Source: a virus (taxonomy: Duplodnaviria > Heunggongvirae > Uroviricota > Caudoviricetes). Taken from it: DNA of 44,007 nt. Of this stretch, positions 27,858 to 44,007 are shown piece after piece. The notes beneath the pieces are model-generated. The model was not told where the DNA came from, did no database searches, and saw only the letters and a list, made by a program, of their open reading frames with translations. Position 1 is the stretch's first letter, and each line of letters opens with the position of its first letter. The translations under genes and the position numbers were made by a program. The stretch lies in the IMG/VR virus record IMGVR_UViG_2636415673_000006. The stretch is one strand, 5' to 3'.

Positions 27858-27906
27858 TCATTCAGGGGGCGCAGAAGTGCGCCCCTGTTCTGACGGGTGA
27901 AGAATC

Positions 27907-28107: not shown

Positions 28108-28109
28108 GT

Positions 28110-29878: not shown

Positions 29879-29886
29879 GGATCCTC

Positions 29887-30057
29887 ATGTTTGTGAAACC
29901 TGTTAAAGGGCGGTCAGTGCCTGACCCTGCCCGCGGCGACCTTTTGCCCGCCGAAGGGCGAAATGTTGACGAGAACAACTACTGGCTGCGCCGTGAAGCA
30001 GCGGGTGATATCCGGCGCGTGAATAAAAAGGTGAATACCGATGACGATAAGCTTTAA
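29887..30057 (+). CDS. Small protein upstream of sheath (Mu-like tail-module small ORF)
   Basis: Hand-translated 56-aa ORF MFVKPVKGRSVPDPARGDLLPAEGRNVDENNYWLRREAAGDIRRVNKKVNTDDDKL overlapping the sheath start. Confidence 0.3.
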   Translation: MFVKPVKGRSVPDPARGDLLPAEGRNVDENNYWLRREAAGDIRRVNKKVNTDDDKL

Positions 30058-31537
30058 CACCATTCCGTCGAATACGCTGGTTCCGTTGTTTTATGCGGAA
30101 ATGGATAACCAGGCGGCGAATACTGCACAGGACAGCGGAGCATCGTTGCTGATTGGTCACGCCAATAACGGTGCAGAGATTGTTGCCAACAGTCTGGTGC
30201 TGATGCCGTCGGCAGACTATGCACGCCAGATTTGTGGTGCGGGAAGTCAGCTGGCGCGTATGGTCGAGGCTTATCGCCAGACCGACCCGTTTGGCGAGCT
30301 GTATGTGATTGCCGTTCCGGAAGCCGCAGGCGCGGCGGCAACGGTTACTCTGACGGTGACCGGGGCGGCAACCGAAACCGGCACGGTGAATGTGTATGTG
30401 GGACATACCCGCGTGCAGGCACCGGTGACCAACGGCGATAACGTCGCGACCATTGCCAGCAGTATCCAGGATGCTATCAATGCCGTTCCGGCCCTGCCGT
30501 TTACGGCCTCATTTTCGGCTGGCGTGGTCACACTGACCGCGCGTCATAAGGGACTTTGCGGGAATGAAATTCCTGTCAGCCTCAATTACTACGGCTTTGG
30601 TGGGGGCGAAGTGCTGCCAGCGGGTGTACAGATTGCTGTGGCGACGGGTACCGCCGGAACGGGCGCTCCTGTTCTCACCGGTGCGGTGGCTGCAATGGCG
30701 GATGAGCCGTTTGATTATATCGGTCTGCCGTTCAACGACACGGCCTCCGTTAACACGCTGGTGACCGAGATGAACGATACCAGCGGTCGCTGGAGCTATG
30801 CGCGTCAGCTGTATGGTCATGTGTATACGTCAAAGACCGGTACGCTGTCAGAACTGGTGACCGCAGGTGACCAGTTTAACCAGCAGCACATTACCCTGGC
30901 GGGGTACGAAAAAGAAACCCAGACACCTGCCGACGAGCTGGCGGCAAGCCGTACCGCCCGCGCAGCGGTGTTTATCCGCAACGATCCGGCACGTCCCACG
31001 CAGACCGGTGAGCTGGTGGGTATGCTGCCTGCGCCGAAGGGGAAACGGTTCACGATGACCGAGCAGCAGACCCTGCTGTCTCATGGCGTGGCAACGGCGT
31101 ATGTCGAAAGCGGGGTACTGCGCATTCAGCGTGATGTCACCACGTACAGGAAAAATGCTTACGGGGTTGCGGATAACAGCTACCTCGACAGCGAGACGCT
31201 GCATACCAGCGCGTATGTGCTGCGCAAACTGAAATCCGTCATTACCAGTAAGTACGGGCGTCACAAGCTTGCCAGTGACGGTACCCGCTTTGGTCCCGGT
31301 CAGGCGATTGTCACCCCGGCGGTGATCAAAGGGGAACTGCTGGCAACCTACCGTCAGCTTGAGCGTGCGGGGATCGTGGAAAACTACGAACTGTTTAAGC
31401 AGTACCTGGTTGTGGAGCGTGATGCCAGCGATCCGAACCGCCTGAACACGCTGTTCCCGCCTGACTATGTTAACCAGTTGCGTGTCTTTGCCGTGGTTAA
31501 CCAGTTCCGTCTTCAGTATTCAGAGGAGTCCGCATAA
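30041..31537 (+). CDS. Contractile tail sheath protein (Mu gpL-like)
   Basis: 498-aa ORF followed by a ~118-aa tube gene, a frameshifted chaperone pair and a tape measure: the Mu-like myovirus tail arrangement. Confidence 0.7.
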   Translation: MTISFNTIPSNTLVPLFYAEMDNQAANTAQDSGASLLIGHANNGAEIVANSLVLMPSADYARQICGAGSQLARMVEAYRQTDPFGELYVIAVPEAAGAAATVTLTVTGAATETGTVNVYVGHTRVQAPVTNGDNVATIASSIQDAINAVPALPFTASFSAGVVTLTARHKGLCGNEIPVSLNYYGFGGGEVLPAGVQIAVATGTAGTGAPVLTGAVAAMADEPFDYIGLPFNDTASVNTLVTEMNDTSGRWSYARQLYGHVYTSKTGTLSELVTAGDQFNQQHITLAGYEKETQTPADELAASRTARAAVFIRNDPARPTQTGELVGMLPAPKGKRFTMTEQQTLLSHGVATAYVESGVLRIQRDVTTYRKNAYGVADNSYLDSETLHTSAYVLRKLKSVITSKYGRHKLASDGTRFGPGQAIVTPAVIKGELLATYRQLERAGIVENYELFKQYLVVERDASDPNRLNTLFPPDYVNQLRVFAVVNQFRLQYSEESA

Positions 31538-31893
31538 TGGCCCGTATCGGGGGAACCTGTTATTTCAAAATTGACGGTCAGCAGCTATCGCTGACCGGCG
31601 GCATTGAGGTGCCCATGAACAGGACGGTCAATGATGACATCATCGGCCTGGACGGTTCAGTGGACCGCAAGGAAACTCACCGTGCGCCTTATGTCAAAGG
31701 GACCTTCAAGGTGCCGAAGAATTTTCCGGTGAGCAAAATCACCTCGTCTGATGAGATGACCATCACTGCCGAGCTGGCGAACGGTCAGGTCTATGTACTG
31801 TCGTCTGCCTGGCTGCACGGCGAAGCGAACCATAATGCCGAAGAAGGCACGGTCGATCTTGAGTTCCACGGTGAAGAAGGGGATTACCAGTAA
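31537..31893 (+). CDS. Tail tube protein (Mu gpM-like)
   Basis: 118-aa ORF directly after the sheath gene. Confidence 0.6.
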   Translation: MARIGGTCYFKIDGQQLSLTGGIEVPMNRTVNDDIIGLDGSVDRKETHRAPYVKGTFKVPKNFPVSKITSSDEMTITAELANGQVYVLSSAWLHGEANHNAEEGTVDLEFHGEEGDYQ

Positions 31894-32162
31894 TGAAAGA
31901 GCTTGAGTTAAAGAAACCGATTACCGCTCATGGCGAGACACTCTCCGTACTGGAGTTTGATGAGCCCACCGGGAAAGATGTCCGCGAGCTGGGGTATCCC
32001 TACCAGATGAATCAGGATGAGTCCGTCAGACTTCTGGCGCATGTGGTGTCGAAATACATTGTGCGGCTGGCGAAAGTGCCGCAAAGCTCTGTCGACCAGA
32101 TGTCTCCGGCAGACCTGAATGCAGCGGCGTGGCTTGTGGCTGGTTTTTTCCTCCAGGCCTGA
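31893..32162 (+). CDS. Tail assembly chaperone (upstream ORF of frameshift pair)
   Basis: 89-aa ORF between tube and tape measure; contains the slippery heptamer near its 3' end. Confidence 0.55.
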   Translation: MKELELKKPITAHGETLSVLEFDEPTGKDVRELGYPYQMNQDESVRLLAHVVSKYIVRLAKVPQSSVDQMSPADLNAAAWLVAGFFLQA

Positions 32163-32311
32163 CGGCTGAATACCTCACTGATCGCTTCTTTGACTGCGCC
32201 AGCTACTGGCGCATTAATCCCTTCGAATTGCTGAATATGCCGATCAGTGAAATTCCCTTGCTGGTCAGTCAGGCAAACAGGATAGAGCAGGAGAAACGCA
32301 CACATGGCTGA
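32129..32311 (+). CDS. Tail assembly chaperone frameshift extension (-1 frame)
   Basis: ORF in the -1 frame relative to 31893..32162, overlapping it and ending at the tape-measure start; predicted fusion about 139 aa. Confidence 0.5.
   Translation: MACGWFFPPGLTAEYLTDRFFDCASYWRINPFELLNMPISEIPLLVSQANRIEQEKRTHG
32144..32150 (+). other. Programmed -1 ribosomal frameshift slippery site (T TTT TTC)
   Basis: Heptamer TTTTTTC in the zero frame of the chaperone ORF, 10 nt before its stop; the -1 frame stays open to 32311. Confidence 0.5.
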
Positions 32312-34145
32312 ATTTGAGCTTAAGGCGTTGATCACCGGTGTCGACAGGCTTTCTCCCGCGCTGTCGAAAATGCAAAAGAAAATCCGGGGATTTAAACGCC
32401 AGGCGGAAGAAGCGTCACAGGGTGGGCTGGCGCTTGGTGGCGGACTGGCTGCGGGTCTGACGCTTTCCCTGAAATCTTATGCCGATCAGGAAAACGCCGC
32501 CACCGGGCTGAAAGTCGCCATGATGGATGCGAACGGCGAGGTTGGAAAGAGCTTTCAGGACATCAATAAACTGGCTATTGGTCTGGGTAACCAGCTACCC
32601 GGTACAACGGCTGATTTCCAGAACATGATGCAGATGCTGGTGCGTCAGGGGATCCCGGCAGAAAACATTCTGGGTGGTGTGGGTAAAGCGACAGCTTATC
32701 TTGCGGTACAACTGAAAAAAACACCGGAAGCGGCTGCTGAGTTTGCTGCAAAGATGCAGGATGCTACCGGAACGGCGTCAGAAGACATGATGGGGCTGTT
32801 CGACACTATCCAGAAGGCGTTTTATCTTGGCGTTGACGATACCAACATGTTGTCCTTCTTCACTAAAACCAGTTCTGTTCTGAAGATGGTGAACAAGGAC
32901 GGTCTTCAGGCTGCACAGAGCCTTGCCCCCATCAGCGTCATGATGGATCAGATGGGGATGAACGGGGAGTCGGCAGGTAATGCCCTGCGAAAAGTTATCC
33001 AGTCCGGATTAAGCGTTAAGAAAATCAGGGACGTCAATAAAGTCATGGCCCGCCAGAAACTCGGGGTACAGCTCGATTTTACTGACGGCAAAGGAAGTTT
33101 TGGCGGTCTTGATAACATGTTCAGGCAACTGGCAAAGCTGCGAAAACTGACCGACGTTAAGCGAACAGGTGTACTTAAGGCAATATTTGGTGATGATGCC
33201 GAAACCCTTCAGGTGGTCAATGCACTAATCGATAAAGGAAAGGATGGCTACGATCAGATCCAGCAGAAGATGAATAAACAGGCCAGCCTGAATAAACGTG
33301 TTCAGGCCCAGCTTGGTACGCTGTCCAACCTGTGGGAGGCAATGACGGGGACCGCAACTAACGGCCTTGCGGCTATTGGCGGCGCATTTTCTGGTGACGC
33401 CAAAAATATCACGCAATGGCTGGGGGAGTTAGGGGAAAAATTCACGAAGTTTGCGGATGAAAATCCCCGGGTTATTCGCGGCGTCGTCGGGCTTGCTGCC
33501 GGTCTTGCGATTCTGAAACTGGGATTGATGGGCGTTGGCGGGGCCATCAGTATTGTCAGCAGGATCATGTCGATGACGCCGATTGGAATGATTGCGACGG
33601 CGATAGCCCTGGCTGCGGGATTAATTATCACTAACTGGGATGTTGTCGGACCTTATTTCAAGAAGCTCTGGGAAACCATTGGTCCTTATTTTGAGGCTGG
33701 CTGGGAACTTCTGAAGAAGGTTTTTGCCTGGTCGCCGCTGGGGATGGTAATCAATAACTGGGGACCGGTTGTTAAGTGGTTTCAGGATATGTGGGACAAG
33801 CTGAAGCCAATTATTGAGTGGTTTACCGACAGTTCCGGTGACACGGTCGATGCCATTAACTCTGCGCAGTGGGGCGCGGGTGCTTATGATGCTTATGGGA
33901 CGGGATTCCCGGCGCGGGGATACACACCTTATCCGGCGATGGATCCGGCTCAGGCAAACAACGCCTCCGATGCCACAGGCCCGAATCCCTTCATGATTAA
34001 CAAAGCTTCTGCGCCAAAAGTTGACGGTGAGATCAAGGTCTCTTTTGTGAATTCGCCTCCGGGTATGCGGGTTATGGAAACGCGATCCAGCGGTATCGAC
34101 GTGAATCACGACGTTGGCTACACCCGATTTGGTATGGGGGGCTGA
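32304..34145 (+). CDS. Tail tape measure protein
   Basis: 613-aa ORF, alpha-helical and Ala/Gly-rich with internal TM-like segment (VVGLAAGLAILKLGLMGVGGAISIV). Confidence 0.75.
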   Translation: MAEFELKALITGVDRLSPALSKMQKKIRGFKRQAEEASQGGLALGGGLAAGLTLSLKSYADQENAATGLKVAMMDANGEVGKSFQDINKLAIGLGNQLPGTTADFQNMMQMLVRQGIPAENILGGVGKATAYLAVQLKKTPEAAAEFAAKMQDATGTASEDMMGLFDTIQKAFYLGVDDTNMLSFFTKTSSVLKMVNKDGLQAAQSLAPISVMMDQMGMNGESAGNALRKVIQSGLSVKKIRDVNKVMARQKLGVQLDFTDGKGSFGGLDNMFRQLAKLRKLTDVKRTGVLKAIFGDDAETLQVVNALIDKGKDGYDQIQQKMNKQASLNKRVQAQLGTLSNLWEAMTGTATNGLAAIGGAFSGDAKNITQWLGELGEKFTKFADENPRVIRGVVGLAAGLAILKLGLMGVGGAISIVSRIMSMTPIGMIATAIALAAGLIITNWDVVGPYFKKLWETIGPYFEAGWELLKKVFAWSPLGMVINNWGPVVKWFQDMWDKLKPIIEWFTDSSGDTVDAINSAQWGAGAYDAYGTGFPARGYTPYPAMDPAQANNASDATGPNPFMINKASAPKVDGEIKVSFVNSPPGMRVMETRSSGIDVNHDVGYTRFGMGG

Positions 34146-34226
34146 TACCCCGCTTAAACACGGGTTTTGTCGTTTAGCAGGTTCTTGGTAGGATTAGTCC
34201 GATACTTTAATGATGGGAATAGGGAT

Positions 34227-34904
34227 ATGAAAGTCTTAACAATTTATTCAGTTGTCGGCATGGCTCTTTTACTCGGGGGATGTACCTCTCCGAAGTACAA
34301 TTATTTACCAAAAACAGAAAATTATAGTGAACCTCCTGTAGGAAGCATTAATACAGCTTATGTCGGTGATTCAATGATTAAGCAGGGGGTGTCACAGAGG
34401 TTTGAAGGTCTGAAGGTTAATGCTCCTGCGAGAATTTCCTGGGCGTATACGATCACTCCGGGGATGCTGAAAAAGGTTGGTGAGGATAACAAGGCTGATT
34501 ATTACTTTCTCACAAACGGTGCTGATTCAGCCAATGTGGAAAAGGCAGCCCTTGCCGATATGTGGCAGGGCATCATGGTAGAAAAGAAAAAGAATGCCTT
34601 ATGTGTAATAACAGTTTTCGGTGTTACCAACTGTGAAACTAACATGCCTATCGAAAAGGTTACTCTGAATATCAGTGGTGATTCATCTTTCCAGCAAGCT
34701 CTGCTTTACAACGGAAGGGTCGGAAACAAAATCAACATTGGATATCGTGAATTTTCATCGAATACAGCACGCCCGGCCTTCAACAACGATGTTGAGTATG
34801 ATCTCGCGGAGTCTAAAACAATTGGCTATAAAGGGGCTAAATTCGAAGTACTTGATGCGAGTAACCAAAGCATAAGGTATCGGGTAATAAGTAACTTTAG
34901 ATAA
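34227..34904 (+). CDS. Lipoprotein of unknown function (moron inside tail module)
   Basis: Signal peptide plus lipobox (MKVLTIYSVVGMALLLGGCTSP); AT-rich relative to flanks; followed by its own terminator. Track ORF begins at 34167. Confidence 0.65.
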   Translation: MKVLTIYSVVGMALLLGGCTSPKYNYLPKTENYSEPPVGSINTAYVGDSMIKQGVSQRFEGLKVNAPARISWAYTITPGMLKKVGEDNKADYYFLTNGADSANVEKAALADMWQGIMVEKKKNALCVITVFGVTNCETNMPIEKVTLNISGDSSFQQALLYNGRVGNKINIGYREFSSNTARPAFNNDVEYDLAESKTIGYKGAKFEVLDASNQSIRYRVISNFR

Positions 34905-34918
34905 GCGATAATTTAATG

Positions 34919-34943
34919 AAACCCGCTTCGGCGGGTTTTTTTA
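34919..34943 (+). terminator. Rho-independent terminator after the lipoprotein moron
   Basis: aacccgc-ttcg-gcgggtt followed by T7. Confidence 0.7.
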
Positions 34944-34957
34944 TATCCGGAGTTTAT

Positions 34958-36286
34958 ATGACGTGGAAAGACAGACTTCAGGACGCGTCATTTCGCGGCG
35001 TGCCGTTTAAGGTTGAAGAAGAAAGTGCGGGAACCGGTCGTCGTGTGGAAACGCACGAATACCCGAACCGCGACAAACCCTATACCGAAGACCTGGGGAA
35101 AATCACTTTCCGCCCGTCCATCACGGCTTATGTGGTGGGAGATGACTGCTTTGACCAGCGCGATCGCCTGATTGACGCGCTGAATAAACCCGGTCCCGGC
35201 ACGCTTGTCCATCCGACTTACGGTGAGCTGAAAGTCTGTGTTGACGGAGAAGTTCGGGTCAGCACATCGAAGAGTGAAGGGCGTATTGTCCGCTTTGACC
35301 TGAAGTTTGTCGAAGCGGGAGAACTCTCTTACCCCACATCAGGTGCGGCGACGGCGCAGACGCTGATGTCATCCTGTTCTGCACTGGATGACTGCATCAG
35401 TGACAGTTTCAGTAGTTTCAGTATCGATGGCGTGGCAGATTTTGTGCAGAACGATGTCGTCGGTAATGCCAGCACAATGCTTGGGTATGTTTCTGATGCG
35501 ATGAAAGTGGTGGATTTTGCCGTATCGGATGCCGCCAGGCTGTTGCAGGGGGATATCTCGGTACTTCTGCCGCCGCCATCGTCAGGCAAAAATTTCGTTG
35601 AGCAGGTGCAGAAAATGTGGCGTACCGGGAAACGCCTTTATGGTAACGCCAGCGACCTGGTCACCATGATCAAAACGCTTTCCGGTGTCAGCCTCGGCAG
35701 CGATCTGCAACCGCGCGGCGTCTGGAAAACGGACAGTAAAACCACCGCCACGGCGACGCAGCAGCGTAACGTGGTTGCCAGCATCCTTCGTACGACCGCA
35801 ATCAGCGAAGCGGCGTATGCCGTCACCCGATTGCCTGCGCCAACAACTTCCGCGGTGATGCAGAATGCCGCAGTGGGGCAGGCAACAACACCCGCGCAGA
35901 GCTCCGGCTGGCCTGCCGTCACGCATCCGGTGCTGAACAATGCACCGGCGGTGAAAAACACGGTTGACCTGCCAACGTGGGAAGAACTGACCGACATTCG
36001 CGACACACTGAATATGGCAATTGATAAGGAGTTGTCCCGTACAACCAGTGATGCGCTGTTTCTGGCGCTGCGCCGGGTGAAAGCAGATCTGAATGCGGAT
36101 ATCAACACGCGCCTTGAACAGTCTGCTCGGATCATTCAGCGCACGCCGGATGAGGTTTTACCCGCGCTGGTGCTGGCGGCGGCCTGGTTTGATAACGCGG
36201 CGCGTGACGCGGACATTATCCGGCGTAATGCCATTACGCATCCCGGCTTTGTGCCGGTGATCCCTCTGAAGGTGCCAGTGCAATGA
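34958..36286 (+). CDS. Mu-like DNA circulation protein (gpN-like)
   Basis: Start placed at the internal ATG (MTWKDRLQDASFRGVPF) after the terminator, with RBS GGAG; the track ORF start at 34916 lies inside the terminator hairpin. Confidence 0.6.
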   Translation: MTWKDRLQDASFRGVPFKVEEESAGTGRRVETHEYPNRDKPYTEDLGKITFRPSITAYVVGDDCFDQRDRLIDALNKPGPGTLVHPTYGELKVCVDGEVRVSTSKSEGRIVRFDLKFVEAGELSYPTSGAATAQTLMSSCSALDDCISDSFSSFSIDGVADFVQNDVVGNASTMLGYVSDAMKVVDFAVSDAARLLQGDISVLLPPPSSGKNFVEQVQKMWRTGKRLYGNASDLVTMIKTLSGVSLGSDLQPRGVWKTDSKTTATATQQRNVVASILRTTAISEAAYAVTRLPAPTTSAVMQNAAVGQATTPAQSSGWPAVTHPVLNNAPAVKNTVDLPTWEELTDIRDTLNMAIDKELSRTTSDALFLALRRVKADLNADINTRLEQSARIIQRTPDEVLPALVLAAAWFDNAARDADIIRRNAITHPGFVPVIPLKVPVQ

Positions 36287-37362
36287 ACGACAATGTCACG
36301 CTACGGGTAAATGGCCGGGAGTGGAATGGCTGGACATCGGTGCGCATCGGTGCCGGTATTGAACGGCTGGCGCGGGATTTCAGTGTGGAGATCACCCGCC
36401 AGTGGCCGGGAGATGAGGGTATCACCACGCTTCAGCCGCGCATTAAAAACGGTTCAAAAGTGGAAGTGCTGATTGGTGATGAGCTGGTGATCACCGGCTG
36501 GGTGGAGGCGACTCCCGTTCGTTACGATGCCCGTTCGGTCAGCACCGGTATTGCCGGACGTAGTCTGACCGCTGACCTGATTGACTGTGCAGCCGAACCG
36601 ACACAGTTTAACGGACGATCGCTGGTACAGATTGCGCAGGCGCTTGCTGCGCCTTTCGGCATTGAGGTGGTGAACAACGGTGCACCGTCGGATGTTATTC
36701 CTGATGTCCAGCCTGATCACGGTGAAACGGTGATCGAGGTGATCAACAAAATACTCGGTCAGCAGCAGGCGCTGGCTTATGACGACCCGCACGGCAGGCT
36801 GGTGATTGGCGGTATTGGCTCAACGCGGGCACATACCGCGCTGGTACTTGGGGAAAACATCCTTTCCTGTGATACGGAGAAGAGTGTTCGGGAGCGTTTT
36901 TCAGTTTACCAGGTGGCGGGGCAGCGTGCCGGAAACGACGATGATTTCGGTGAGGCCACCACCACCGCGCTGCGGGCCCGCACAGAGGACGCATTTATTG
37001 CCCGTTACCGTCCGATGTATATCAGGCAGACAGGGCAGGCCACGGGGGCAGGCTGTATTGCCCGTGCTGACTTTGAAGCCCGGCAACGGGCGGCGCGGAC
37101 GGATGAAACCACCTATGTGGTGCAGGGCTGGCGACAGGGTAACGGTACGCTGTGGCAGCCCAACCAGCGGGTGATTGTCTTTGATCCGGTCTGTGGTTTC
37201 GACAATACCGAACTGCTTGTTTCGGAAGTCACGTTTACTCAGGACCAGAACGGCACCCTGACGGAAATCCGTGTCGGCCCGCCTGATGCTTATCTGCCTG
37301 AACCCGAAGCCCCCGGCGCGCGGAAAAAGAAAAAATCCAGAGTACAGGAGGACCCGTTCTGA
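36283..37362 (+). CDS. Mu gpP-like tail/baseplate hub protein
   Basis: 359-aa ORF in Mu-like order after the DNA circulation gene. Confidence 0.55.
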   Translation: MNDNVTLRVNGREWNGWTSVRIGAGIERLARDFSVEITRQWPGDEGITTLQPRIKNGSKVEVLIGDELVITGWVEATPVRYDARSVSTGIAGRSLTADLIDCAAEPTQFNGRSLVQIAQALAAPFGIEVVNNGAPSDVIPDVQPDHGETVIEVINKILGQQQALAYDDPHGRLVIGGIGSTRAHTALVLGENILSCDTEKSVRERFSVYQVAGQRAGNDDDFGEATTTALRARTEDAFIARYRPMYIRQTGQATGAGCIARADFEARQRAARTDETTYVVQGWRQGNGTLWQPNQRVIVFDPVCGFDNTELLVSEVTFTQDQNGTLTEIRVGPPDAYLPEPEAPGARKKKKSRVQEDPF

Positions 37363-37910
37363 TGAGGACGATTGAAGCCATGCAGCGACAACTCCTCGGC
37401 CTGATTGGGCGGGCCGTGGTGAAAAGCATCAGTGCCGCCACGAAATGTCAGACCGTGGATGTGTCCCTGATTGCCGGTGAACCCAAAGCCGGGGTTGAAC
37501 ATCTTGAACCCTACGGTTTTACCTCAAGGGCAAACAGCGGTGCGGAAGCGGTGGTGTTGTTTCCGGATGGCGACCGTTCTCATGCAGTGGTTGTTACGGT
37601 GTCGGACCGGCGCTACCGCCTGAAAGGGCTGCAGACGGGTGAGGTGGCTGTCTATGACGATCAGGGGCAGTCCGTGACGCTGACCCGGGAGGGGATCGTG
37701 GTGGACGGTGCAGGTAAAACGATCACGTTTCGCAATGCGCCTAAGGCACGTTTTGAAATGGACCTGGAAGTGACAGGACAGGTGAAAGACCTGTGCGACT
37801 CCGGCGGCACCACCATGTCAGCGATGCGGCTTGCCTATAACGGGCATCGTCACAGAGAGAACGGTCAGGGCAGTAACACCGACAAACCTGATAAAGCGAT
37901 GGAGGCATGA
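37362..37910 (+). CDS. Baseplate assembly protein V-like (spike, Mu gp45-like)
   Basis: 182-aa ORF in Mu-like order. Confidence 0.55.
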   Translation: MRTIEAMQRQLLGLIGRAVVKSISAATKCQTVDVSLIAGEPKAGVEHLEPYGFTSRANSGAEAVVLFPDGDRSHAVVVTVSDRRYRLKGLQTGEVAVYDDQGQSVTLTREGIVVDGAGKTITFRNAPKARFEMDLEVTGQVKDLCDSGGTTMSAMRLAYNGHRHRENGQGSNTDKPDKAMEA

Positions 37911-38335
37911 TGGAACTGTGGCTGACGGTGAACGGTAAACGCACCTGCGCCAGCGCACCGCTGGATCCGCTGACCCGCGCCGTGGTGATTTCCCTGTTTA
38001 CCTGGCGGCGGGCGGAGCCTGATGACAACGCCGACGTCCCGATGGGATGGTGGGGGGATACCTGGCCTGCGGTACAGAATGACCGTTACGGCTCCCGACT
38101 GTGGCTGCTTCAGCGCAGCAAACTGACCAATCAGCTGGTGCAGACGGTAAGGGGGTATATCCGCGAATGCCTGCAATGGATGATTGATGACGGCGTGGTG
38201 TCCCGTATTGATCTGGATATCCGCCGCACCGGGATTAATGAACTGGGTAACAGTATCACTCTCTGGCGTCGTGACGGACCGGTAATGATTTCTTTTGATG
38301 ATCTGTGGAGTGCGATAACGCATGGCGGACAGTGA
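37907..38335 (+). CDS. Baseplate protein (GPW/gp25-like, Mu gp46-like)
   Basis: 142-aa ORF in Mu-like order. Confidence 0.5.
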   Translation: MMELWLTVNGKRTCASAPLDPLTRAVVISLFTWRRAEPDDNADVPMGWWGDTWPAVQNDRYGSRLWLLQRSKLTNQLVQTVRGYIRECLQWMIDDGVVSRIDLDIRRTGINELGNSITLWRRDGPVMISFDDLWSAITHGGQ

Positions 38336-39380
38336 ATTTCAGCGCCCGACGCTGGCAGAAAATATCAGTATGCTCCGTAACGATTTATTCGCCAGGCTGG
38401 ACGTCAGCGACACGCTCCGGCGCATGGATGAAGACGTGCGGGCAAAGGTGTATGCGGCGGCGCTGCATACGGTTTACGGGTACATCGATTATCTGGCAAT
38501 GAACATGCTGCCTGACCTGTGCGATGAGTCCTGGCTGGCGCGACATGCTGCGATGAAACGGTGTCCGCGCAAGGGGGCCACGACTGCCAGCGGGTATATG
38601 CGCTGGGAAGGTGTCAGCGATGGCCTGAAGGTGACCGCCGGAAGTGTTATTCAGCGCGATGACCTGGTTCAGTACACGGCAACTGCCGATGCAACCAGCA
38701 CCGGTGGTGTCCTGAGCGTGCCGATCGCCTGCTCAAGTGCAGGCGCGGTCGGTAACGCTGACGACGGTACGTCATTAATCCTGGTCACGCCGGTTAATGG
38801 TCTGCCGTCTTCCGGCGAGGCAGATACCCTGACAGGTGGATTTGATATTGAAGAGCTGGAAACGTGGCGCGCCCGCGTCATTGAGCGGTATTACTGGACG
38901 CCTCAGGGCGGGGCTGACGGGGACTATGTCGTCTGGGCTAAAGAAGTGCCCGGCATTACCCGCGCATGGACATACCGACACTGGATGGGAACGGGGACTG
39001 TCGGTGTGATGATAGCCAGCAGTGACCTGATTAACCCCATTCCGGAAGAATCAACGGAAACGGCGGCAAGACAACATATCGAGCCACTGGCCCCGGTGGC
39101 AGGCTCTGATTTGTATGTGTTCAGGCCGGTGGCACATACGGTGGATTTTCATATCCGCGTGACGCCGGACACACCGGAAATACGGGCTGCCATCACCGCG
39201 GAGTTGCGTTCGTTCCTGCTGCGTGATGGTTATCCGCAGGGAGAACTGAAGGTATCGCGTATCAGTGAAGCGATTTCCGGTGCGAACGGGGAATACAGCC
39301 ATCAGTTGCTTGCACCGGCAGACAATATCTCCATTGCAAAAAATGAACTGGCGGTACTGGGGACGATTTCATGGACGTGA
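38322..39380 (+). CDS. Baseplate J-like protein (Mu gp47-like)
   Basis: 352-aa ORF in Mu-like order. Confidence 0.6.
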
Positions 39381-39955
39381 CAAACGATGATTACATCCGT
39401 CTGTTATCGGCACTGTTGCCCTCCGGTCCGGCGTGGTCAGCCAGCGATCCGGCGATTGCCGGTGCGGCACCGTCATTAACCCGCGTTCATCAGCGTGCGG
39501 ATGCCCTGATGCGGGAGCTGGATCCGCGCACCACCACTGAACTGATAAACCGCTGGGAGCGTCTGTGCGGCCTGCCGGATGAATGTATTCCGGCGGGAAC
39601 GCAGACCCTTCGCCAGCGTCAGCAACGGCTGGATGCGAAGGTTAATCTGGCGGGCGGCATCAATGAGGATTTTTACCTTGCACAGCTTGCTGCCCTGGGC
39701 AGACCAGATGCCAACATCACGCGATACGACAAAAGCACGTTCACCTGCTCATCGGTCTGTACTGACGCGGTGAATGCGCCGGAATGGCGGTATTACTGGC
39801 AGGTCAACATGCCAGCTGCCACCAACACCACCTGGATGACATGTGGCGATCCCTGTGATTCCGCACTGCGTATCTGGGGCGACACCGTTGTCGAGTGTGT
39901 GCTTAACAAACTCTGCCCGTCGCATACCTACGTAATTTTTAAATATCCGGAGTAA
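39371..39955 (+). CDS. Mu gp48-like tail protein (DUF2313-like)
   Basis: 194-aa ORF between baseplate J and tail fibre. Confidence 0.5.
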
Positions 39956-39958
39956 TTC

Positions 39959-40891
39959 ATGCATCGTATAGACACGAAAACCGCGCAGAAGGATAAGTTC
40001 GGCGCGGGTAAGAACGGTTTTACCCGTGGTAACCCCCAGACCGGCACGCCTGCCACCGATCTGGATGATGACTACTTTGACATGTTGCAGGAGGAGCTTT
40101 GCAGCGTGGTGGAGGCATCCGGTGCCAGCCTGGAGAAGGGGCGGCATGACCAGCTGCTTACAGCGCTTCGTGCGCTGCTGTTAAGCCGCAAGAATCCGTT
40201 TGGTGATATCAAATCGGATGGCACGGTGAAAACGGCTCTCGAAAACCTTGGTTTGGGAGATGGCTCGGGGCGTTACAGCAAAACTGTCGTTTTTTCATCG
40301 TCGGGTTCATATACGTGGCCAGCTGACGTAAAACGAATTGACGTTATTCTGACTGCGGCGGGCGGCGGTGGCGGTGGATGTAACGCGGAGAACGCAAATC
40401 AGACATTTTCAGGGGCTGGCGGAGGAGCCGGAGGTACTGTTTTTGCCACTATTTATGCGACAGACAACGATGCCGGGCCAGGGACCTATACAGTGACAAT
40501 TGGCAGCGGTGGTAGTGGTGCCAATGGGCCAGGGTCTGGAAATAATGGCGGTCATAGTTCGTTCATGACATTAACTGCGCTCGGCGGCCAGGGTGGGCAA
40601 TGGGGCGGCGCTACAAATACCGCTGGCGGGCTCGGTGGTGCAGGCTCTGGCGGTTATAAAACTGAACAAGGCGGAGACGGTTCAGACGGACAGGCGGGCC
40701 AGACGCTGTTAGTAGGCAATGGGGCATCGAGCTATTGGGGTGGCGGCGGCCGCGCTGGGCAACTGAGCGGTAATCCTGGAGCTTGCTCTGGCTCCGGCGG
40801 CGGGGGTGCATACGATAATAGCTATTCACACACGTCAGGACGTGGCGGGCACGGAGCTAATGGCGTGCTGGTAATTCGGGAGTACATGTAA
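39959..40891 (+). CDS. Tail fibre protein with glycine-rich C-terminal domain
   Basis: Conserved tail-fibre N-terminus ([51 protein letters not shown]) followed by about 200 aa of Gly-rich repeats ([28 protein letters not shown]). Confidence 0.7.
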
Positions 40892-41296
40892 ATGAATGAT
40901 ATCTATGCAGTTGTTGATAATAACGTTGTTATTAATGTCATTATCTGGGACGGAATTTCTGAATGGAAACCAGAGGCTGGTAATTTAGTTCCGTTAAACG
41001 GCGATGCTGGCATCGGTTGGTCATATTCAGACGGAGTATTTACCGCGCCACCTCCCCCAGAACGCTCTCACAACGCGTTAGTTGCGGAGGCTGAGCTGCA
41101 GAAATCAGCACTACTGACCGTAGCAAATAACACAATAGCACCGCTGCAGGATGCCGTTGATTTGGAAATGGCGACAGACGATGAACAGGCGTTACTGCTG
41201 GCGTGGAAAAAATACAGGGTGCTGCTGAACCGTGTTGATACCTCAGCGGCACCCGAAATAGAGTGGCCTACGCAACCGGGGGAGCGGGCCAGTTGA
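40892..41296 (+). CDS. Tail fibre assembly protein (Tfa)
   Basis: 134-aa ORF with the conserved Tfa C-terminus ([26 protein letters not shown]). Confidence 0.7.
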
Positions 41297-41520
41297 TATC
41301 AGGCGCAGCGTCAGCATCAACTGCTGTCACTGCGTCGATGTAGTCGAGTACCGCATTCAGCCGCGTTTTTTCATCATCAGTCAGTTTGCGGCCTGCACTT
41401 CTCCGTTGGCATCTTTGTTATATGGTACAACTGCGCAGAGGCCTGTCTCTTCAATTGTGCCAGTTGAATACTACGATACAACGCTCGGCCTTCCTGTTTG
41501 GTGGAACATAACCACATCCA
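41278..41520 (-). pseudogene. Remnant of a second, inverted tail-fibre assembly gene (5'-truncated and frameshifted)
   Basis: Minus-strand hand translation gives ...[46 protein letters not shown]-stop, with an upstream out-of-frame piece ...RALYRSIQLAQLKRQASAQL; both parallel the Tfa C-terminal consensus. No start codon; converges on and overlaps the plus-strand Tfa 3' end. Confidence 0.5.
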
Positions 41521-41554
41521 CATGGAAAAGAGCTGATGGTATAGATGTATAAAC

Positions 41555-41580
41555 TTAAAAAAGGCGCTTTTTAGCGCCTT
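41555..41580 (-). terminator. Rho-independent terminator downstream of the acyltransferase gene
   Basis: aggcgc-ttttta-gcgcct hairpin flanked by A/T runs on both sides; on the minus strand the stem is followed by tttttaagttt. Confidence 0.5.
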
Positions 41581-41584
41581 TAAA

Positions 41585-42709
41585 TTAAGATATTCTTTTA
41601 GCTATAGAATGACCTATATTTATAAACGGTTTTTCTATTACGTTATATATCAAGTAAGATAGGCTTATAGAAATTATGAGCGATGATATATAAATGGCAA
41701 ACGATCTATGTTCAGTGCTAACACCAATGCTGGAACCGTAAAACTCAATAAACTGTATAACAGGAACATGAATCAGATAAAGTGAATATGATATTCCACC
41801 AAGAGCAACAAGTGATTTATTGAATGAAATAACTTTATTATTTTCTAGAATAATAACACATAAAACAATCAGAAATGCAATATATGCAGATCGCGTCAAA
41901 CCATGTCCTTCAGACACCCCATTAAGCCAAAAAACAAACATCATTCCTAGAATGAAAACGCATAAACTATTTATAATAGCATTATTCATTCTTTTATGCC
42001 TAAGTAAAGGCATTGTCTCTGATATAATCATCCCTAAAATGAAATCATATACTATAGGGTTGCCTATGAATCCTATATGAGAAAACACTCCTGTTTTTGC
42101 AATATTGAATGATTGGGCGTCAATTACTACCGAGTGGTTAAAGTAAAGAGAAATAATTGTACTTACAGCAACTAGAAAACATGATGTGATTAATACCCTG
42201 TATTTTATACTTAATGACATGGATATTGCGAAAATAAAATAAAAATATATCTCGTACCCAAGTGACCATGAAACAATTAGCGTTCCCCACCCATAATATG
42301 GCGGTAGAGTTGAGCCATCTAAAGGGATGAGAAGAAATGATTTTATAATATTATTTATAGAAAAAACACCACCCCATGATACGCCTGTGTAAATATTGTG
42401 GTAAAAAAGAAAAACATAAACGCTTAATACTATTGCGTAAACAGGATAAATTCTAAAAAATCTCTTTACAAGAAATGAAGCGGTATTTCTTAAAGATGTT
42501 TTTGCTAAGTTTTTAGTTGAGTATGATATTATAAATCCGCTTATTATAAAAAACAATTCAACTCCAAATATAGCATTCGCGGTTATCTTGTCCATGAAAG
42601 AACCAGGATCTACTTGCCCGAAAAGACCTCTATTATGACCAATAGCTACAGCAAGAGCTGCAATTCCACGAAGCGCTTCTATTCCGTATAATTTATCTGT
42701 TTTCATCAA
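41585..42709 (-). CDS. Acyltransferase family 3 integral membrane protein (putative O-antigen/LPS O-acetyltransferase, lysogenic-conversion gene)
   Basis: 374-aa polytopic membrane ORF with the family N-terminus (LYGIEALRGIAALAVAIGHN); extremely AT-rich; located between tail fibre genes and integrase. Confidence 0.75.
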   Translation of the reverse strand: MMKTDKLYGIEALRGIAALAVAIGHNRGLFGQVDPGSFMDKITANAIFGVELFFIISGFIISYSTKNLAKTSLRNTASFLVKRFFRIYPVYAIVLSVYVFLFYHNIYTGVSWGGVFSINNIIKSFLLIPLDGSTLPPYYGWGTLIVSWSLGYEIYFYFIFAISMSLSIKYRVLITSCFLVAVSTIISLYFNHSVVIDAQSFNIAKTGVFSHIGFIGNPIVYDFILGMIISETMPLLRHKRMNNAIINSLCVFILGMMFVFWLNGVSEGHGLTRSAYIAFLIVLCVIILENNKVISFNKSLVALGGISYSLYLIHVPVIQFIEFYGSSIGVSTEHRSFAIYISSLIISISLSYLIYNVIEKPFINIGHSIAKRIS

Positions 42710-42849
42710 GTAATATAGTTAGTAGTTGATAAAATTGTTGCTGGAGTCTACCACCAAGAGCTTGGATGATCGACCAGTTAGCATCTCAAGCTGTATGCGT
42801 GAGACAAAAACGAGACACACAAAGCTTTGCAAGTCTTTGCGCTGTTTAC

Positions 42850-44007
42850 CTATGATACCTTCTCCTCAATCCAATCCGCCCACCACTGCATCATTTCTCT
42901 GCGCTTATCGAGATACTGAGCATGGTTGTAAATCCCGCGCACAGATCCGCCGTTGGCATGTGCCAGTTGCACTTCAATAGCATCAGCAGGCCATTCGTGC
43001 TCGTTCATAATCGTGCTGAATTCATGCCTGAATCCGTGACCGCTTTCCAGACCTTCATAGCCGATTTGTTTGATCACAAGCAGTACAGCGTTCTCGCAAA
43101 TTGGCTTCTTCTTATCGTTGCGCCCGGCAAAAACAAACTCTGATACTGGTTTGGTGATTGAACTTAGCGTAGTGAGAAGTTCAACTACCTGGTCTGACAT
43201 AGGAACCACATGAATTTTGCGTCCCTTCATCACACTGGCGTCGATGGTGATAATCCTGTTTTCAAAATCGACGTTCTTCCATAGCATGGAACGAAGCTCT
43301 TTTGTTCTGAGGGCAGTGTAGCGTAAAACTTTGGTCGCAATGAGCGATACGATACTTCCTGAAAATGTTGCCAGTGCTTTGTTGAATGCCGGGATCTGGT
43401 CTGCAGGAAGAAACGGGAAGTTCTTCTTGCGGTATCCTTTCATGGCGTCAGCAAGGTCAGGTGCCGGGTTATATTTAGCCCTGCCTGTGACAATAGCGTA
43501 ACGGAAAACCTCGCCGCATCTTCTGCGGGCTTTATTGGCTCGTTCCATTGCGCCGCGATCTTCAAATCTGCGGATTACTTCCAACAGTTGCATCGGCTCA
43601 ATATCCTGAATTTCAAGGCCGCCGATGATGGGTAAAATGTCGTCATCAAACATTTTTGCAAGTTCATTTGCATAGCCTACTGACCAGACTTGCTTCTTGT
43701 GCTCGTACCATTCCTTGTAAATGGCGCTAAAGGAGTTGTTGTTAGACGAAGCCTTTTTCGCTTTTACCGGATCGATGCCAACCGAGATGTCTTTCCTCGC
43801 AGTCCATGCTTTATCCCTTGCCTCCTGCAAAGTCATAAGCGGATATTTTCCTACGGTCAGTATTTTTTCCTTACCGTCAATCTTGTAGCGAAGCTGCCAT
43901 ACCTTTTTCCCGGATACAGGGACATAAAGGTACAGGCCATTACCATCGAGAAGGCGGTATGGTTTTTCTTTCGGCTTTGCTGCTTCAATCTGCTTAACGG
44001 TGAGCAT
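42850..44007 (-). CDS. int: Tyrosine integrase (P4/DLP12 IntD type)
   Basis: 385-aa ORF whose ATG is the last codon of the window (MLTVKQIEAAKPKEKPYRLLDGNGLYLYV...); C-terminal catalytic region HGFRHEFSTIMNE...AHANGGSVRGIYNHAQY contains the conserved R/H/R/Y residues. Confidence 0.9.
   Translation of the reverse strand: MLTVKQIEAAKPKEKPYRLLDGNGLYLYVPVSGKKVWQLRYKIDGKEKILTVGKYPLMTLQEARDKAWTARKDISVGIDPVKAKKASSNNNSFSAIYKEWYEHKKQVWSVGYANELAKMFDDDILPIIGGLEIQDIEPMQLLEVIRRFEDRGAMERANKARRRCGEVFRYAIVTGRAKYNPAPDLADAMKGYRKKNFPFLPADQIPAFNKALATFSGSIVSLIATKVLRYTALRTKELRSMLWKNVDFENRIITIDASVMKGRKIHVVPMSDQVVELLTTLSSITKPVSEFVFAGRNDKKKPICENAVLLVIKQIGYEGLESGHGFRHEFSTIMNEHEWPADAIEVQLAHANGGSVRGIYNHAQYLDKRREMMQWWADWIEEKVS

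What the first reader, a model, noticed from the sequence alone, without database searches (positions are those of the whole stretch)
41585..42709. AT-rich family-3 acyltransferase next to the integrase: candidate serotype-converting gene
A polytopic membrane acyltransferase with much lower GC than the phage backbone, with its own terminator, lies between the tail fibre genes and the integrase. This is the position where serotype-converting phages carry O-antigen modification genes, and it would alter LPS and block re-adsorption.
Basis: partly seen in the sequence, partly recalled or inferred. Interest (0 to 1): 0.5.

Follow-up and report, generated by a model that had tools for sequence, protein, structure and literature searches.

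The report
Prophage O-antigen acyltransferase replacing gtr genes
This is an intact membrane acyltransferase gene carried as a small AT-rich cassette in the exact slot where related E. coli/Shigella prophages carry their O-antigen glucosylation genes; it is found only in E. coli with the mannose-rich "O77-group" O-antigen, so it most likely O-acetylates that O-antigen. It is an ordinary kind of phage gene, but it predicts a modification not yet described for this serogroup family.

Summary
A 373-aa ORF (41585-42706, minus strand) is a full-length AT3 acyltransferase (PF01757, E 1.3e-28). It has 31.6% GC against about 55% in the tail genes, a hairpin terminator directly after its stop, and lies between tail-fibre genes and an IntS integrase.

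The window is an SfV/SfII-type E. coli prophage at tRNA argW. Its integrase is 98% identical to that of phage Sf6.

The roughly 1.2-kb cassette sits between the same two junction sequences that flank gtrABC operons in sibling prophages (E. coli 042, strain 300081, K-12 CPS-53).

The same cassette, 86.5% identical in DNA with an identical hairpin stem-loop, lies at the tail-fibre end of an unrelated lambdoid prophage in Salmonella (cluster members named Carrau, O:6,14, and Beaudesert). dN/dS between the two is 0.10.

All five of 5,426 complete E. coli genomes that carry the gene have the O17/O44/O73/O77/O106 O-antigen cluster, which 94 of 5,426 genomes have.

All AT3 signature motifs are present, and the AlphaFold model has ten TM helices with an HGSNAT-like fold.

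Best reading: an AT3-only O-antigen O-acyl (probably acetyl) transferase, serotype-converting in the manner of Sf6 Oac but not orthologous to Oac or OacD. It is a new member of a known kind. Activity, acceptor sugar and expression are untested.

The parts
41585..42706 (-). AT3-only acyltransferase CDS (373 aa; ATG at 42706; an in-frame TTG lies at 42709)
41560..41581 (-). Intrinsic-terminator-like hairpin immediately after the stop codon
   Evidence: 9-bp stem with 5 GC pairs, 4-nt loop, T-rich tail. The stem-loop is identical in the Salmonella copy of the cassette.
41530..42754 (-). AT-rich mobile cassette: 48 bp of upstream sequence, the ORF, the terminator and about 30 bp beyond
   Evidence: 86.5% DNA identity over 1,232 aligned bases to a Salmonella lambdoid prophage end (L004), with no homology outside this stretch. 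GC 0.28-0.36 across it.
42800..42831 (.). 32-bp junction patch between int and the cassette, also present upstream of gtrA in other prophages
   Evidence: 87.5% identical to the K-12 intS-yfdG spacer; 93.8% identical to the region upstream of gtrA in strain 300081.
41201..41552 (.). Conserved junction block between the tail-fibre assembly gene and the cargo. It contains a tail-fibre-assembly gene remnant (41268-41396, minus strand) and a 48-aa ORF (41406-41552, plus strand).
   Evidence: 96-99.6% identical in many E. coli prophages. In E. coli 042 and strain 300081 the block is followed by gtrC-gtrB-gtrA instead of the acyltransferase; the remnant matches Caudo_TAP, E 5.6e-11.
42850..44007 (-). 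IntS tyrosine integrase, upstream of the cassette on the same strand
   Evidence: Phage_integrase, Phage_int_M and Arm-DNA-bind_3 domains; 98% aa identity to Sf6 Int; tRNA-Arg lies 160 bp beyond int in the host genomes.
40892..41296 (+). Tail-fibre assembly protein, convergent with the acyltransferase
   Evidence: Caudo_TAP, E 4.6e-33.
39959..40891 (+). Tail fibre with a glycine-rich C-terminal domain, the presumed receptor-binding protein. Homology to SfII/SfV ends at 40260, while homology to the E. coli 042 gtr prophage continues.
   Evidence: Gly_rich_2, E 8.8e-19; homology boundaries.

Best explanation
The gene encodes a stand-alone AT3 (acyltransferase-3) inner-membrane enzyme carried as a lysogenic-conversion cassette by an SfV/SfII-type temperate phage integrated at tRNA argW.

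Proposed mechanism, by inference from the AT3 family: its ten transmembrane helices form a pore that admits cytoplasmic acyl-CoA, most likely acetyl-CoA. The acyl group is passed across the membrane, with the TM1 Arg-X10-His and TM3 RXXR motifs taking part. It is then esterified on the periplasmic face to a sugar hydroxyl of the O-antigen, with no SGNH partner domain.

The acceptor is most likely the ->6)Man(a1-2)Man(a1-2)Man(b1-3)GlcNAc(a1-> backbone of the E. coli O17/O44/O73/O77/O106 ('O77-group') O-antigen.

The expected result is an altered O-epitope. By analogy with Sf6 Oac and BTP1 OafB, it should also reduce recognition of the O-antigen by this phage and related phages.

The cassette is an alternative cargo to the gtrABC glucosylation operon at the same phage locus.

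Shown here: family membership, intact motifs, fold, cassette boundaries, slot equivalence with gtr, purifying selection and host O-type association. Inferred: acetyl as the group transferred, O-antigen as the acceptor, the phenotype and expression.
For: **Family and fold**
- PF01757 matches full length.
- R13-X10-H24, VxxFFxISGF (49-58) and R82xxR85 are present. They are invariant or at least 90% conserved in a 67-sequence alignment. PMC9833829 and PMC9558356 name these as the functional motifs.
- The AlphaFold2 model has pLDDT 93.1 and pTM 0.92.

**Slot**
- K-12 CPS-53 has argW-intS-gtrA-gtrB-gtrS-tfa remnant-tfa.
- The window's tail module 34954-41552 is 97.9% identical to the E. coli 042 (O44) prophage. 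Beyond 41552, 042 continues into gtrC/B/A.
- The 32-bp patch at 42800-42831 also lies upstream of gtrA elsewhere.
- Sf6 has the same int-oac-terminator arrangement convergent with its tailspike gene, and an integrase 98% identical to this one.

**Mobility and selection**
- The cassette is 86.5% identical in a lambdoid Salmonella prophage.
- dN/dS between the two copies is 0.10.
- The gene is intact in strain 2018-05-2CC although the tail genes there are pseudogenes.

**Context of relatives**
- Nine of nine further homologue contexts, at 35-89% identity, lie beside a tail-fibre or tailspike gene of a prophage or phage. Several are at the argW locus.

**Host association**
- Five of five complete E. 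coli genomes with the gene have the O17/O44/O73/O77/O106 wzy and wzx. Only 94 of 5,426 genomes have that wzy.
- The hypergeometric P is 1.4e-9 if the carriers are treated as independent.
- Named members of the 89% Salmonella homologue cluster come from serovars Carrau and Beaudesert. Carrau is O:6,14.
- The 50% homologue occurs in two E. coli assemblies that both carry the O176 Wzy, within a cluster of the same architecture. It also occurs in S. Cerro, whose Wzy is 52% identical to the O77-group Wzy.
- The O77 group is already known to be diversified by prophage genes outside the O-antigen cluster (PMC7685785).
Against: - No experiment or expression data is available.
- No sigma-70-like promoter was found on the coding strand between int and the ATG, and there is no evident Shine-Dalgarno sequence. 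Transcription may depend on read-through from int or on a non-canonical promoter.
- Published descriptions of the O77 group mention only glucose side branches, not O-acetyl.
- The five E. coli carriers are not phylogenetically independent. Four share most housekeeping alleles near rfb and one is distinct, so the P value is optimistic.
- The AT3 family also acylates capsule, ECA, peptidoglycan, periplasmic glucans and other acceptors (PMC9558356), and sequence does not reveal the acceptor.
- The protein is not detectably orthologous to any characterised O-antigen acetylase. It matches Sf6 Oac at 31% over 81 residues and SfII OacD at E 0.17.
Confidence: 0.75

Rival explanations
1. The enzyme acylates a different envelope glycan, not the O-antigen. 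Candidates are enterobacterial common antigen (as WecH does), colanic acid, LPS core, osmoregulated periplasmic glucans (as OpgC does) or peptidoglycan.
For: AT3 proteins have all these acceptor classes (PMC9558356, outline). Sequence alone does not fix the acceptor. RAST-type annotations of phage homologues call them 'exopolysaccharide production protein ExoZ'.
Against: These glycans are common to essentially all E. coli, yet the gene is confined to one O-antigen family (5 of 5 carriers; 94 of 5,426 background). Its relatives track related mannose-rich O-antigen clusters in Salmonella and E. coli O176. It also replaces the O-antigen glucosylation operon in the same slot.
Confidence: 0.1
2. 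The gene is a silent or decaying passenger, transcriptionally silenced AT-rich DNA with no phenotype in the lysogen.
For: No canonical promoter or Shine-Dalgarno sequence lies upstream. DNA at 31.6% GC in E. coli is a typical H-NS target (general knowledge). The gene is rare among complete genomes (5 of 5,426).
Against: dN/dS is 0.10 across genera. All catalytic motifs are intact. The exact protein is listed in 1,087 blocks of the assembly collection. It is kept intact where the surrounding prophage has decayed.
Confidence: 0.07
3. It modifies the O-antigen but transfers an acyl group other than acetyl, such as succinyl or propionyl. Alternatively, it needs an unlinked periplasmic partner such as an SGNH-type esterase/transferase to complete transfer.
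For: AT3 proteins transfer several acyl groups, and whether AT3-only enzymes need a partner is an open question (PMC9558356). No SGNH domain is present in the protein, and the cassette holds a single ORF.
Against: All characterised phage-borne AT3-only O-antigen enzymes (Oac/OacA, OacB, OacC, OacD, the phiV10 Oac homologue) are O-acetyltransferases acting without a known partner (PMC9558356). The cassette moves as a single gene between unrelated phages and genera, which argues that it is self-sufficient.
Confidence: 0.08

Closest known systems
Oac (OacA) of Shigella phage Sf6
   Same: Both are AT3-only membrane proteins of similar size (333 and 373 aa). The gene order is the same: int, then the acyltransferase on the same strand, then a terminator, convergent with the receptor-binding protein gene. 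The integrase is 98% identical and, in the window's host genomes, lies next to tRNA-Arg argW. The R/K-X10-H, FFxISG and RXXR motifs are shared.
   Different: Only 31% identity over the first 81 residues, with nothing detectable beyond. tblastn at E 1e-3 does not retrieve Sf6. The phage backbone differs: a myovirus of SfV type rather than P22-like. The host O-antigen differs: mannose/GlcNAc rather than rhamnose/GlcNAc.
OacD of Shigella phage SfII (with OacB and OacC)
   Same: It sits on the same phage lineage, with the structural module 97.9% identical. It is an AT3 gene with its own terminator, placed just after the tail-fibre assembly gene and convergent with it.
   Different: No significant pairwise similarity (E 0.17). 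SfII keeps gtrA/B/II as well, whereas here the acyltransferase is the only cargo between tfa and int.
gtrABC O-antigen glucosylation operons of CPS-53 (yfdG/H/I), the E. coli 042 prophage and SfV-type phages
   Same: They occupy the identical locus and flanking junction sequences. In 042 the host O-antigen family is the same O77 group. The presumed biological role is the same: post-assembly O-antigen modification encoded by a prophage.
   Different: The chemistry and proteins are unrelated: three proteins add glucose through undecaprenyl-phosphate-glucose, against one acyl-CoA-dependent AT3.
OafA / OafB (GtrC family II) of Salmonella
   Same: They share an AT3 domain with the same TM1 and TM3 motifs, modify O-antigen, and OafB is prophage-borne (BTP1) (PMC9558356).
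   Different: Those proteins have an eleventh TM helix and a periplasmic SGNH domain that is essential for their activity. This protein ends after TM10 and has no SGNH domain.
Uncharacterised AT3 genes of Salmonella P22-like phages SI8, SF6, SI5 and S.Inf 5-2
   Same: They are 46.5-47% identical over the full length and sit in the same integrase-side-to-tailspike slot. The corresponding protein cluster carries names from O:6,7 serovars Montevideo, Infantis and Braenderup.
   Different: They are only 47% identical, lie on a different phage type, and are also uncharacterised (annotated 'exopolysaccharide production protein ExoZ').

Membership tests
Acyltransferase-3 (AT3, PF01757 / TmAT superfamily) | Pfam PF01757 match above the gathering score over the whole domain | tested here: met
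   100.5 bits against a cut-off of 31; residues 8-355; profile positions 2-325 of 326.
Acyltransferase-3 (AT3, PF01757 / TmAT superfamily) | R/K-X10-H motif in TM1 (Arg14/His25 in OafB) | tested here: met
   R13-X10-H24. Both residues are at least 90% conserved in 67 homologues. The motif is defined in PMC9833829.
Acyltransferase-3 (AT3, PF01757 / TmAT superfamily) | RXXR motif at the cytoplasmic end of TM3 | tested here: met
   R82-F-F-R85. R82 is invariant and R85 is at least 90% conserved.
Acyltransferase-3 (AT3, PF01757 / TmAT superfamily) | V-X-X-F-F-X-(I/V/L)-S-G-(F/W/Y) motif | tested here: met
   V49-E-L-F-F-I-I-S-G-F58. V49, F52, F53, I55, S56, G57 and F58 are invariant. The motif is cited in PMC9558356.
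Acyltransferase-3 (AT3, PF01757 / TmAT superfamily) | Ten transmembrane helices with the fold shared with HGSNAT | tested here: met
Acyltransferase-3 (AT3, PF01757 / TmAT superfamily) | Acyl-CoA-dependent transfer of an acyl group to an extracytoplasmic carbohydrate | not testable with these tools
   This needs biochemistry or LPS chemistry.
AT3-SGNH fused O-antigen acetyltransferases (OafA/OafB type) | Eleventh TM helix plus a C-terminal periplasmic SGNH domain | tested here: not met
   The protein ends at residue 373, directly after TM10. PF01757 is the only Pfam hit.
Lysogenic-conversion (serotype-converting) O-antigen modification module of temperate enterobacterial phages | Encoded on a temperate phage next to int/attP and the receptor-binding protein gene | tested here: met
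   The organisation matches Sf6 and SfII.
Lysogenic-conversion (serotype-converting) O-antigen modification module of temperate enterobacterial phages | Interchangeable with known O-antigen modification genes at the same locus | tested here: met
   gtrC/B/A follows the same junction at 41552 in E. coli 042 and strain 300081. gtrA/B/S follows intS in K-12.
Lysogenic-conversion (serotype-converting) O-antigen modification module of temperate enterobacterial phages | Occurrence restricted to hosts with a particular O-antigen backbone | tested here: met
   Five of five carriers have the O77-group wzy/wzx; the background is 94 of 5,426. The Salmonella homologue cluster has members named Carrau (O:6,14) and Beaudesert. 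The caveat is limited phylogenetic independence.
Lysogenic-conversion (serotype-converting) O-antigen modification module of temperate enterobacterial phages | Changes O-antigen structure or serotype and phage adsorption in the lysogen | not testable with these tools
   This requires a comparison of lysogen and cured strain (NMR/MS, agglutination, adsorption).
Oac/OacA-OacD orthologous groups of Shigella flexneri phages | Full-length sequence similarity to Oac (Sf6) or OacD (SfII) | tested here: not met
   Oac: 31% over 81 aa only. OacD: E 0.17. No Shigella phage was retrieved by tblastn at 1e-3.

The most novel reading that the evidence does not exclude
The cassette may create an O-acylated form of the E. 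coli O77-group O-antigen that is not among the structures described for O17, O44, O73, O77 and O106, which differ only by glucose branches. That would be a hidden serological and phage-receptor variant that in-silico O-typing cannot see. Its 89% homologue in Salmonella group H could then be the genetic determinant of a bracketed minor O factor, for example O:24, which separates Carrau 6,14,[24] from Madelia 1,6,14,25. More broadly, this AT3 clade would have co-diversified with one family of mannose-rich O-units across E. coli (O77 group, O176), Salmonella (O:6,14, O:18, O:6,7) and Enterobacter, while hopping between unrelated phage backbones.
Probability: 0.3. Interest if true: 0.55.

Novelty: new member of a known kind. 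Interest (0 to 1): 0.35.

Why it matters
O17, O44, O73, O77 and O106 share one O-antigen gene cluster and cannot be told apart by genome-based typing. The group includes enteroaggregative strain 042 and the STEC O77g:H18 lineage behind a 2025 HUS outbreak (PMC13188871).

Their diversity is currently attributed only to prophage gtr glucosylation. A prophage acyltransferase specific to this group would add a second, unrecorded axis of O-antigen variation. That bears on serotyping, O-antigen vaccine design and the phage host range of these strains.

It would also supply a candidate gene for unexplained minor O factors in Salmonella group H.

For AT3 enzymology, a compact, single-gene, SGNH-less enzyme with a defined simple acceptor (Man3-GlcNAc) would be a convenient model. 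As a kind of genetic element, however, it is ordinary.

Tried and rejected
1. **Orthology to characterised phage O-acetylases.** Sf6 Oac shares only the N-terminal motif region. SfII OacD shows no significant similarity. tblastn at E 1e-3 retrieved no Shigella phage record, so any Shigella-phage acetylase in the collection is more distant than that threshold.
2. **Sequence search of the PDB.** No hit at E <= 1. NCBIfam gave only a spurious 17-bit partial hit to SucT. PADLOC gave no hit, so there is no support for a known defence-system protein.
3. **Own sigma-70 promoter.** The consensus scan found none on the coding strand between int and the ATG. A TATATT hexamer 5 nt upstream of the ATG could give a leaderless mRNA, but it is only partly conserved in the Salmonella copy (TATGTA). 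I do not claim a promoter.
4. **Dam/OxyR phase-variation signature as in Salmonella gtr operons.** There is a single GATC, at 42771-42768, so no such signature.
5. **The 48-aa ORF 41406-41552 as the remnant of the tail gene next to the Salmonella cassette.** No significant similarity and no Pfam hit. The Salmonella tail gene ends differently.
6. **The S. Cerro homologue as the 'wfbX' acetyltransferase reported inside the rfb cluster (PMC6712391).** Rejected. It lies in a prophage remnant next to tail-fibre genes near icd.
7. **Wang et al. 2007, the paper defining the shared E. coli/Salmonella backbone.** It is not held. That Salmonella O:6,14 is the Salmonella member of that group rests on my own knowledge plus the paper's title as cited in PMC7685785.
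8. **Whether individual Salmonella carriers have the O:6,14 wzy.** I could not check this directly. Only serovar names and a 70%-identical Salmonella Wzy cluster are available.
Full report
**1. Observation**

The ORF reported at 41585-42709 on the minus strand is real. The mechanical ORF starts at TTG 42709. The next codon, ATG at 42706, is the start used in RefSeq and gives a 373-aa protein.

The protein matches Pfam Acyl_transf_3 (PF01757) over the whole domain: E 1.3e-28, 100.5 bits against a gathering score of 31. It also matches PHROG 3333 'O-acetyltransferase' at E 7.8e-87.

The gene has 31.6% GC and a GC3 of 23%. The phage structural region 22200-41296 has 55%, and a neighbouring baseplate gene has a GC3 of 62%. 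The low-GC tract runs from about 41500 to 42750, so it covers just the gene and its immediate flanks.

A hairpin with a 9-bp stem and a T-rich tail lies at 41581-41560, 4 nt after the stop. It is the only terminator-like site between 41200 and 43000.

Upstream on the same strand is a tyrosine integrase (42850-44007). Downstream and convergent are a tail-fibre assembly gene (40892-41296) and a tail fibre with a glycine-rich C-terminal domain (39959-40891).

**2. What the surrounding element is**

The 1.6 kb around the gene is 99-100% identical to five complete E. coli chromosomes. In each it sits in a prophage whose integrase is followed, 160 bp on, by tRNA-Arg (argW), yfdC, mlaA and fadL.

The integrase is 98% identical in protein to Sf6 Int. 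From about 22.2 kb to 40,260 the window is 97-98% identical to the Shigella flexneri serotype-converting phages SfII, SfI, SfIV and SfV. These have an HK97-like head and a Mu-like contractile tail. The element is therefore a member of the classical serotype-converting phage lineage that has acquired an Sf6-type integrase.

**3. The gene sits in the gtr slot, between the same junctions**

In K-12 the cryptic prophage CPS-53 has the order argW, intS, yfdG (gtrA), yfdH (gtrB), yfdI (gtrS), a tail-fibre-assembly remnant, then a tail-fibre assembly gene.

In E. coli 042 (O44) a sibling prophage is 97.9% identical to the window from 34954 to 41552. This stretch includes the whole tail fibre, the assembly gene and a remnant of a second assembly gene. 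Beyond that point 042 continues into gtrC, gtrB and gtrA, where the window has the acyltransferase. Strain 300081 shows the same junction on a lambdoid prophage.

On the other side, homology to K-12 intS ends at 42857. A 32-bp patch at 42800-42831 reappears upstream of gtrA in K-12 and in strain 300081.

The acyltransferase cassette therefore replaces a gtr operon between conserved flanks. Sf6 has the equivalent arrangement: int, oac and a terminator, convergent with the tailspike gene. SfII carries the AT3 gene oacD immediately after its tail-fibre assembly gene, also with a terminator.

**4. The gene is a self-contained mobile cassette under selection**

A Salmonella enterica homologue is 89% identical in protein. 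It lies at the very end of an unrelated lambdoid prophage, next to its side tail-fibre gene and the chromosomal hut operon.

DNA homology between the two covers window 42754-41530 only: 86.5% over 1,232 aligned bases. That stretch comprises 48 bp upstream of the ATG, the ORF, a hairpin whose stem-loop is identical, and about 30 bp more.

Nei-Gojobori dN/dS between the two copies is 0.10 (dS 0.52, dN 0.054).

In E. coli 2018-05-2CC several tail genes of the prophage are pseudogenes. The acyltransferase and intS remain intact there, with six amino-acid differences.

The exact protein is indexed in 1,087 blocks of the assembly collection, and every place read showed the same argW context. It also occurs on two IMG/VR viral contigs. 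These observations argue for a functional protein that is useful to the lysogen.

**5. The protein**

The sequence carries all three AT3 signature motifs:
- R13-X10-H24 in TM1.
- V49-E-L-F-F-I-I-S-G-F58.
- R82-F-F-R85.

PMC9833829 and PMC9558356 describe these as the conserved and experimentally essential AT3 motifs in OafA/OafB, Oac and Lag-1. All are invariant or at least 90% conserved in an alignment of 67 homologues.

An AlphaFold2 model built on that alignment is confident (pLDDT 93.1, pTM 0.92). It shows ten long helices and nothing after the last one. There is no SGNH domain, so this is an 'AT3-only' enzyme.

The mechanism I propose is the family mechanism and is not shown here. Acyl-CoA enters a central pore from the cytoplasm, held by the conserved arginines. 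The thioester reaches the TM1 histidine near the periplasmic face, and the acyl group is transferred to a sugar hydroxyl of the acceptor.

**6. What is the acceptor?**

Three independent lines point to the O-antigen, and to a particular one.

(a) Slot equivalence with gtr and oac genes (section 3).

(b) Context of relatives. I examined nine further contexts of homologues at 35-89% identity. In each, the gene lies beside the receptor-binding protein gene of a prophage or phage.
- Lambdoid side tail fibre in Salmonella.
- T7-type beta-helix tailspike in Enterobacter.
- gp53-like fibre with an assembly gene, next to IntS at the argW locus, in E. coli.
- P22-type tailspikes next to an integrase at the same locus in Salmonella and E. 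coli, and in isolated Salmonella phage SI8.
- A tail-fibre/tailspike-like protein with a Peptidase_S74 domain.
- A prophage remnant in S. Cerro.

(c) Host O-type. All five complete E. coli genomes with the gene encode the 'O17/O44/O73/O77/O106 family' Wzy and Wzx. The cluster is galF, two glycosyltransferases, manC, manB, wzy, wzx, gnd. Only 94 of 5,426 complete genomes carry that wzy. The hypergeometric probability of 5 out of 5 is 1.4e-9 if the carriers are independent.

They are not fully independent. Four carriers share most nearby housekeeping alleles. The fifth (2018-05-2CC) has different alleles throughout, including wzy.

This 'O77 group' shares the backbone ->6)Man(a1-2)Man(a1-2)Man(b1-3)GlcNAc(a1->. 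It is the E. coli counterpart of S. flexneri: its serogroups differ only by side branches added by prophage genes outside the cluster (PMC7685785; PMC13188871; PMC10304059).

The pattern extends to relatives:
- Named members of the 89% Salmonella cluster come from serovars Carrau and Beaudesert. Carrau is 6,14,[24]:y:1,7.
- From my own knowledge, O:6,14 is the Salmonella member of the shared-backbone group of Wang et al. 2007. That paper is cited but is not held.
- A Salmonella Wzy cluster 70% identical to the O77-group Wzy exists.
- The 50% homologue sits at argW in two E. coli assemblies, GCA_966502365.1 and GCA_047853005.1. Both carry the O176 Wzy, which is 50% identical to the O77-group Wzy, in a cluster of the same architecture.
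- The same 90% cluster is dominated by S. Cerro sequences. The Cerro Wzy is 52% identical to the O77-group Wzy.
- The 47% cluster carries names from Montevideo, Infantis and Braenderup. From my own knowledge these are O:6,7, another Man-rich/GlcNAc unit.
- The 67% homologues are in Enterobacter hormaechei and E. roggenkampii. E. hormaechei has a Wzy 55% identical to the query. I did not show that the same strains carry both.

The simplest reading is that this AT3 clade acts on this family of mannose-rich O-units.

**7. Expression is unresolved**

No sigma-70-like promoter is detected on the coding strand between int and the ATG, and no terminator separates int from the gene. There is no clear Shine-Dalgarno sequence.

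A TATATT hexamer ends 5 nt before the ATG and could support a leaderless transcript. It is TATGTA in the Salmonella copy.

There is only one GATC upstream, so there is no Dam/OxyR phase-variation signature of the gtr type.

Co-transcription with int, or a weak or non-canonical promoter within the 48-90 bp of cassette-specific upstream sequence, are both possible.

**8. Comparison with what is known**

In function and organisation this gene works like Sf6 Oac and SfII OacD. Like them, it is a single AT3-only gene with its own terminator, carried by a temperate phage beside its receptor-binding genes. In those two phages the gene converts the host O-antigen.

It is not a member of their orthologous groups. 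Similarity to Oac is 31% over 81 residues, similarity to OacD is E 0.17, and no Shigella phage is retrieved by tblastn. It is not an OafA/OafB-type enzyme, because the SGNH domain is absent.

No paper in the searched library mentions the protein accession or an argW-borne O-acetyltransferase of E. coli other than neuO and Sf6-type genes. Public annotation is the generic 'acyltransferase family protein'.

Descriptions of the O77 group mention glucose branches only.

**9. Verdict**

The thing is ordinary in kind: a new member of the well-known class of prophage O-antigen acyltransferases. It comes with a specific and readily testable prediction, namely an O-acylated variant of the O77-group (and Salmonella O:6,14) O-antigen.

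I put 0.75 on 'O-antigen O-acyl, most likely acetyl, transferase acting on the O77-group backbone'. I put about 0.1 on another envelope glycan, and less on a silent gene or a non-acetyl or partner-dependent variant. Interest is 0.35.

Noticed in passing
window 41201-41552: A conserved junction block sits between the tail-fibre assembly gene and the cargo. It holds an inverted remnant of a second tail-fibre assembly gene (41268-41396, minus strand, Caudo_TAP E 5.6e-11) and an unannotated 48-aa ORF (41406-41552, plus strand, no Pfam hit). The last 23 bp (41530-41552) are shared by the E. coli acyltransferase prophage, the Salmonella copy of the cassette and gtr-carrying prophages. That overlap could be the recombination point for cargo exchange.
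   Followed up: partly
window 42800-42831: A 32-bp patch just downstream of int recurs upstream of gtrA in K-12 CPS-53 and in strain 300081. It may be a shared regulatory or recombination element of the cargo slot. Its function is unknown.
   Followed up: partly
window 39959-40891: The tail-fibre gene is mosaic. The first roughly 300 bp match SfII/SfV at about 97%, and homology stops at 40260. The glycine-rich C-terminal part matches prophages of O77-group E. coli such as 042. RefSeq annotation splits the gene into an stfP pseudogene and a separate 'glycine-rich domain' CDS, although the window has one uninterrupted 310-aa ORF.
   Followed up: partly
window 11000-14000: A second AT-rich island (GC 0.36-0.40) lies in the early region. 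It carries a 508-aa large serine recombinase (11819-13345: Resolvase, Recombinase and Zn_ribbon_recom domains) and a 260-aa ORF with no Pfam hit (13955-14737). It may be an inserted element or a second integration/inversion system.
   Followed up: no
window 16900-19800: A third AT-rich island (GC 0.35-0.39) holds non-phage-like cargo: a lipocalin (16953-17477, minus strand), a 2-thiouracil desulfurase/DUF1722 protein (17670-18629) and an AraC-type regulator (18972-19712).
   Followed up: no
window 3660-4724 (minus strand): A DndB-like protein (PF14072, E 3.8e-46) lies near the left end of the prophage. It could be part of a DNA-modification-linked or defence module.
   Followed up: no
L002 (E. 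coli 2018-05-2CC, NZ_AP027877.1 1388911-1406511): In this strain the same prophage is heavily decayed: the tail sheath, tail assembly and YmfQ genes are partial and much of the tail module is deleted. The acyltransferase and intS are still intact, which suggests the cargo is retained by selection on the host.
   Followed up: partly
L011/L012 and L044/L045 (assemblies GCA_966502365.1 and GCA_047853005.1): A 50%-identical acyltransferase occupies the same argW-intS slot in E. coli assemblies whose O-antigen cluster is the O176 type. That cluster has the same gene architecture as the O77 group and a Wzy 50% identical to the O77-group Wzy. This hints at parallel diversification of the AT3 clade and the O-unit family.
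   Followed up: partly
window 44007: The window ends exactly on the first base of the integrase start codon. The attachment site and tRNA-Arg, which lie 160 bp further on in the host genomes, are therefore outside the window.
   Followed up: yes
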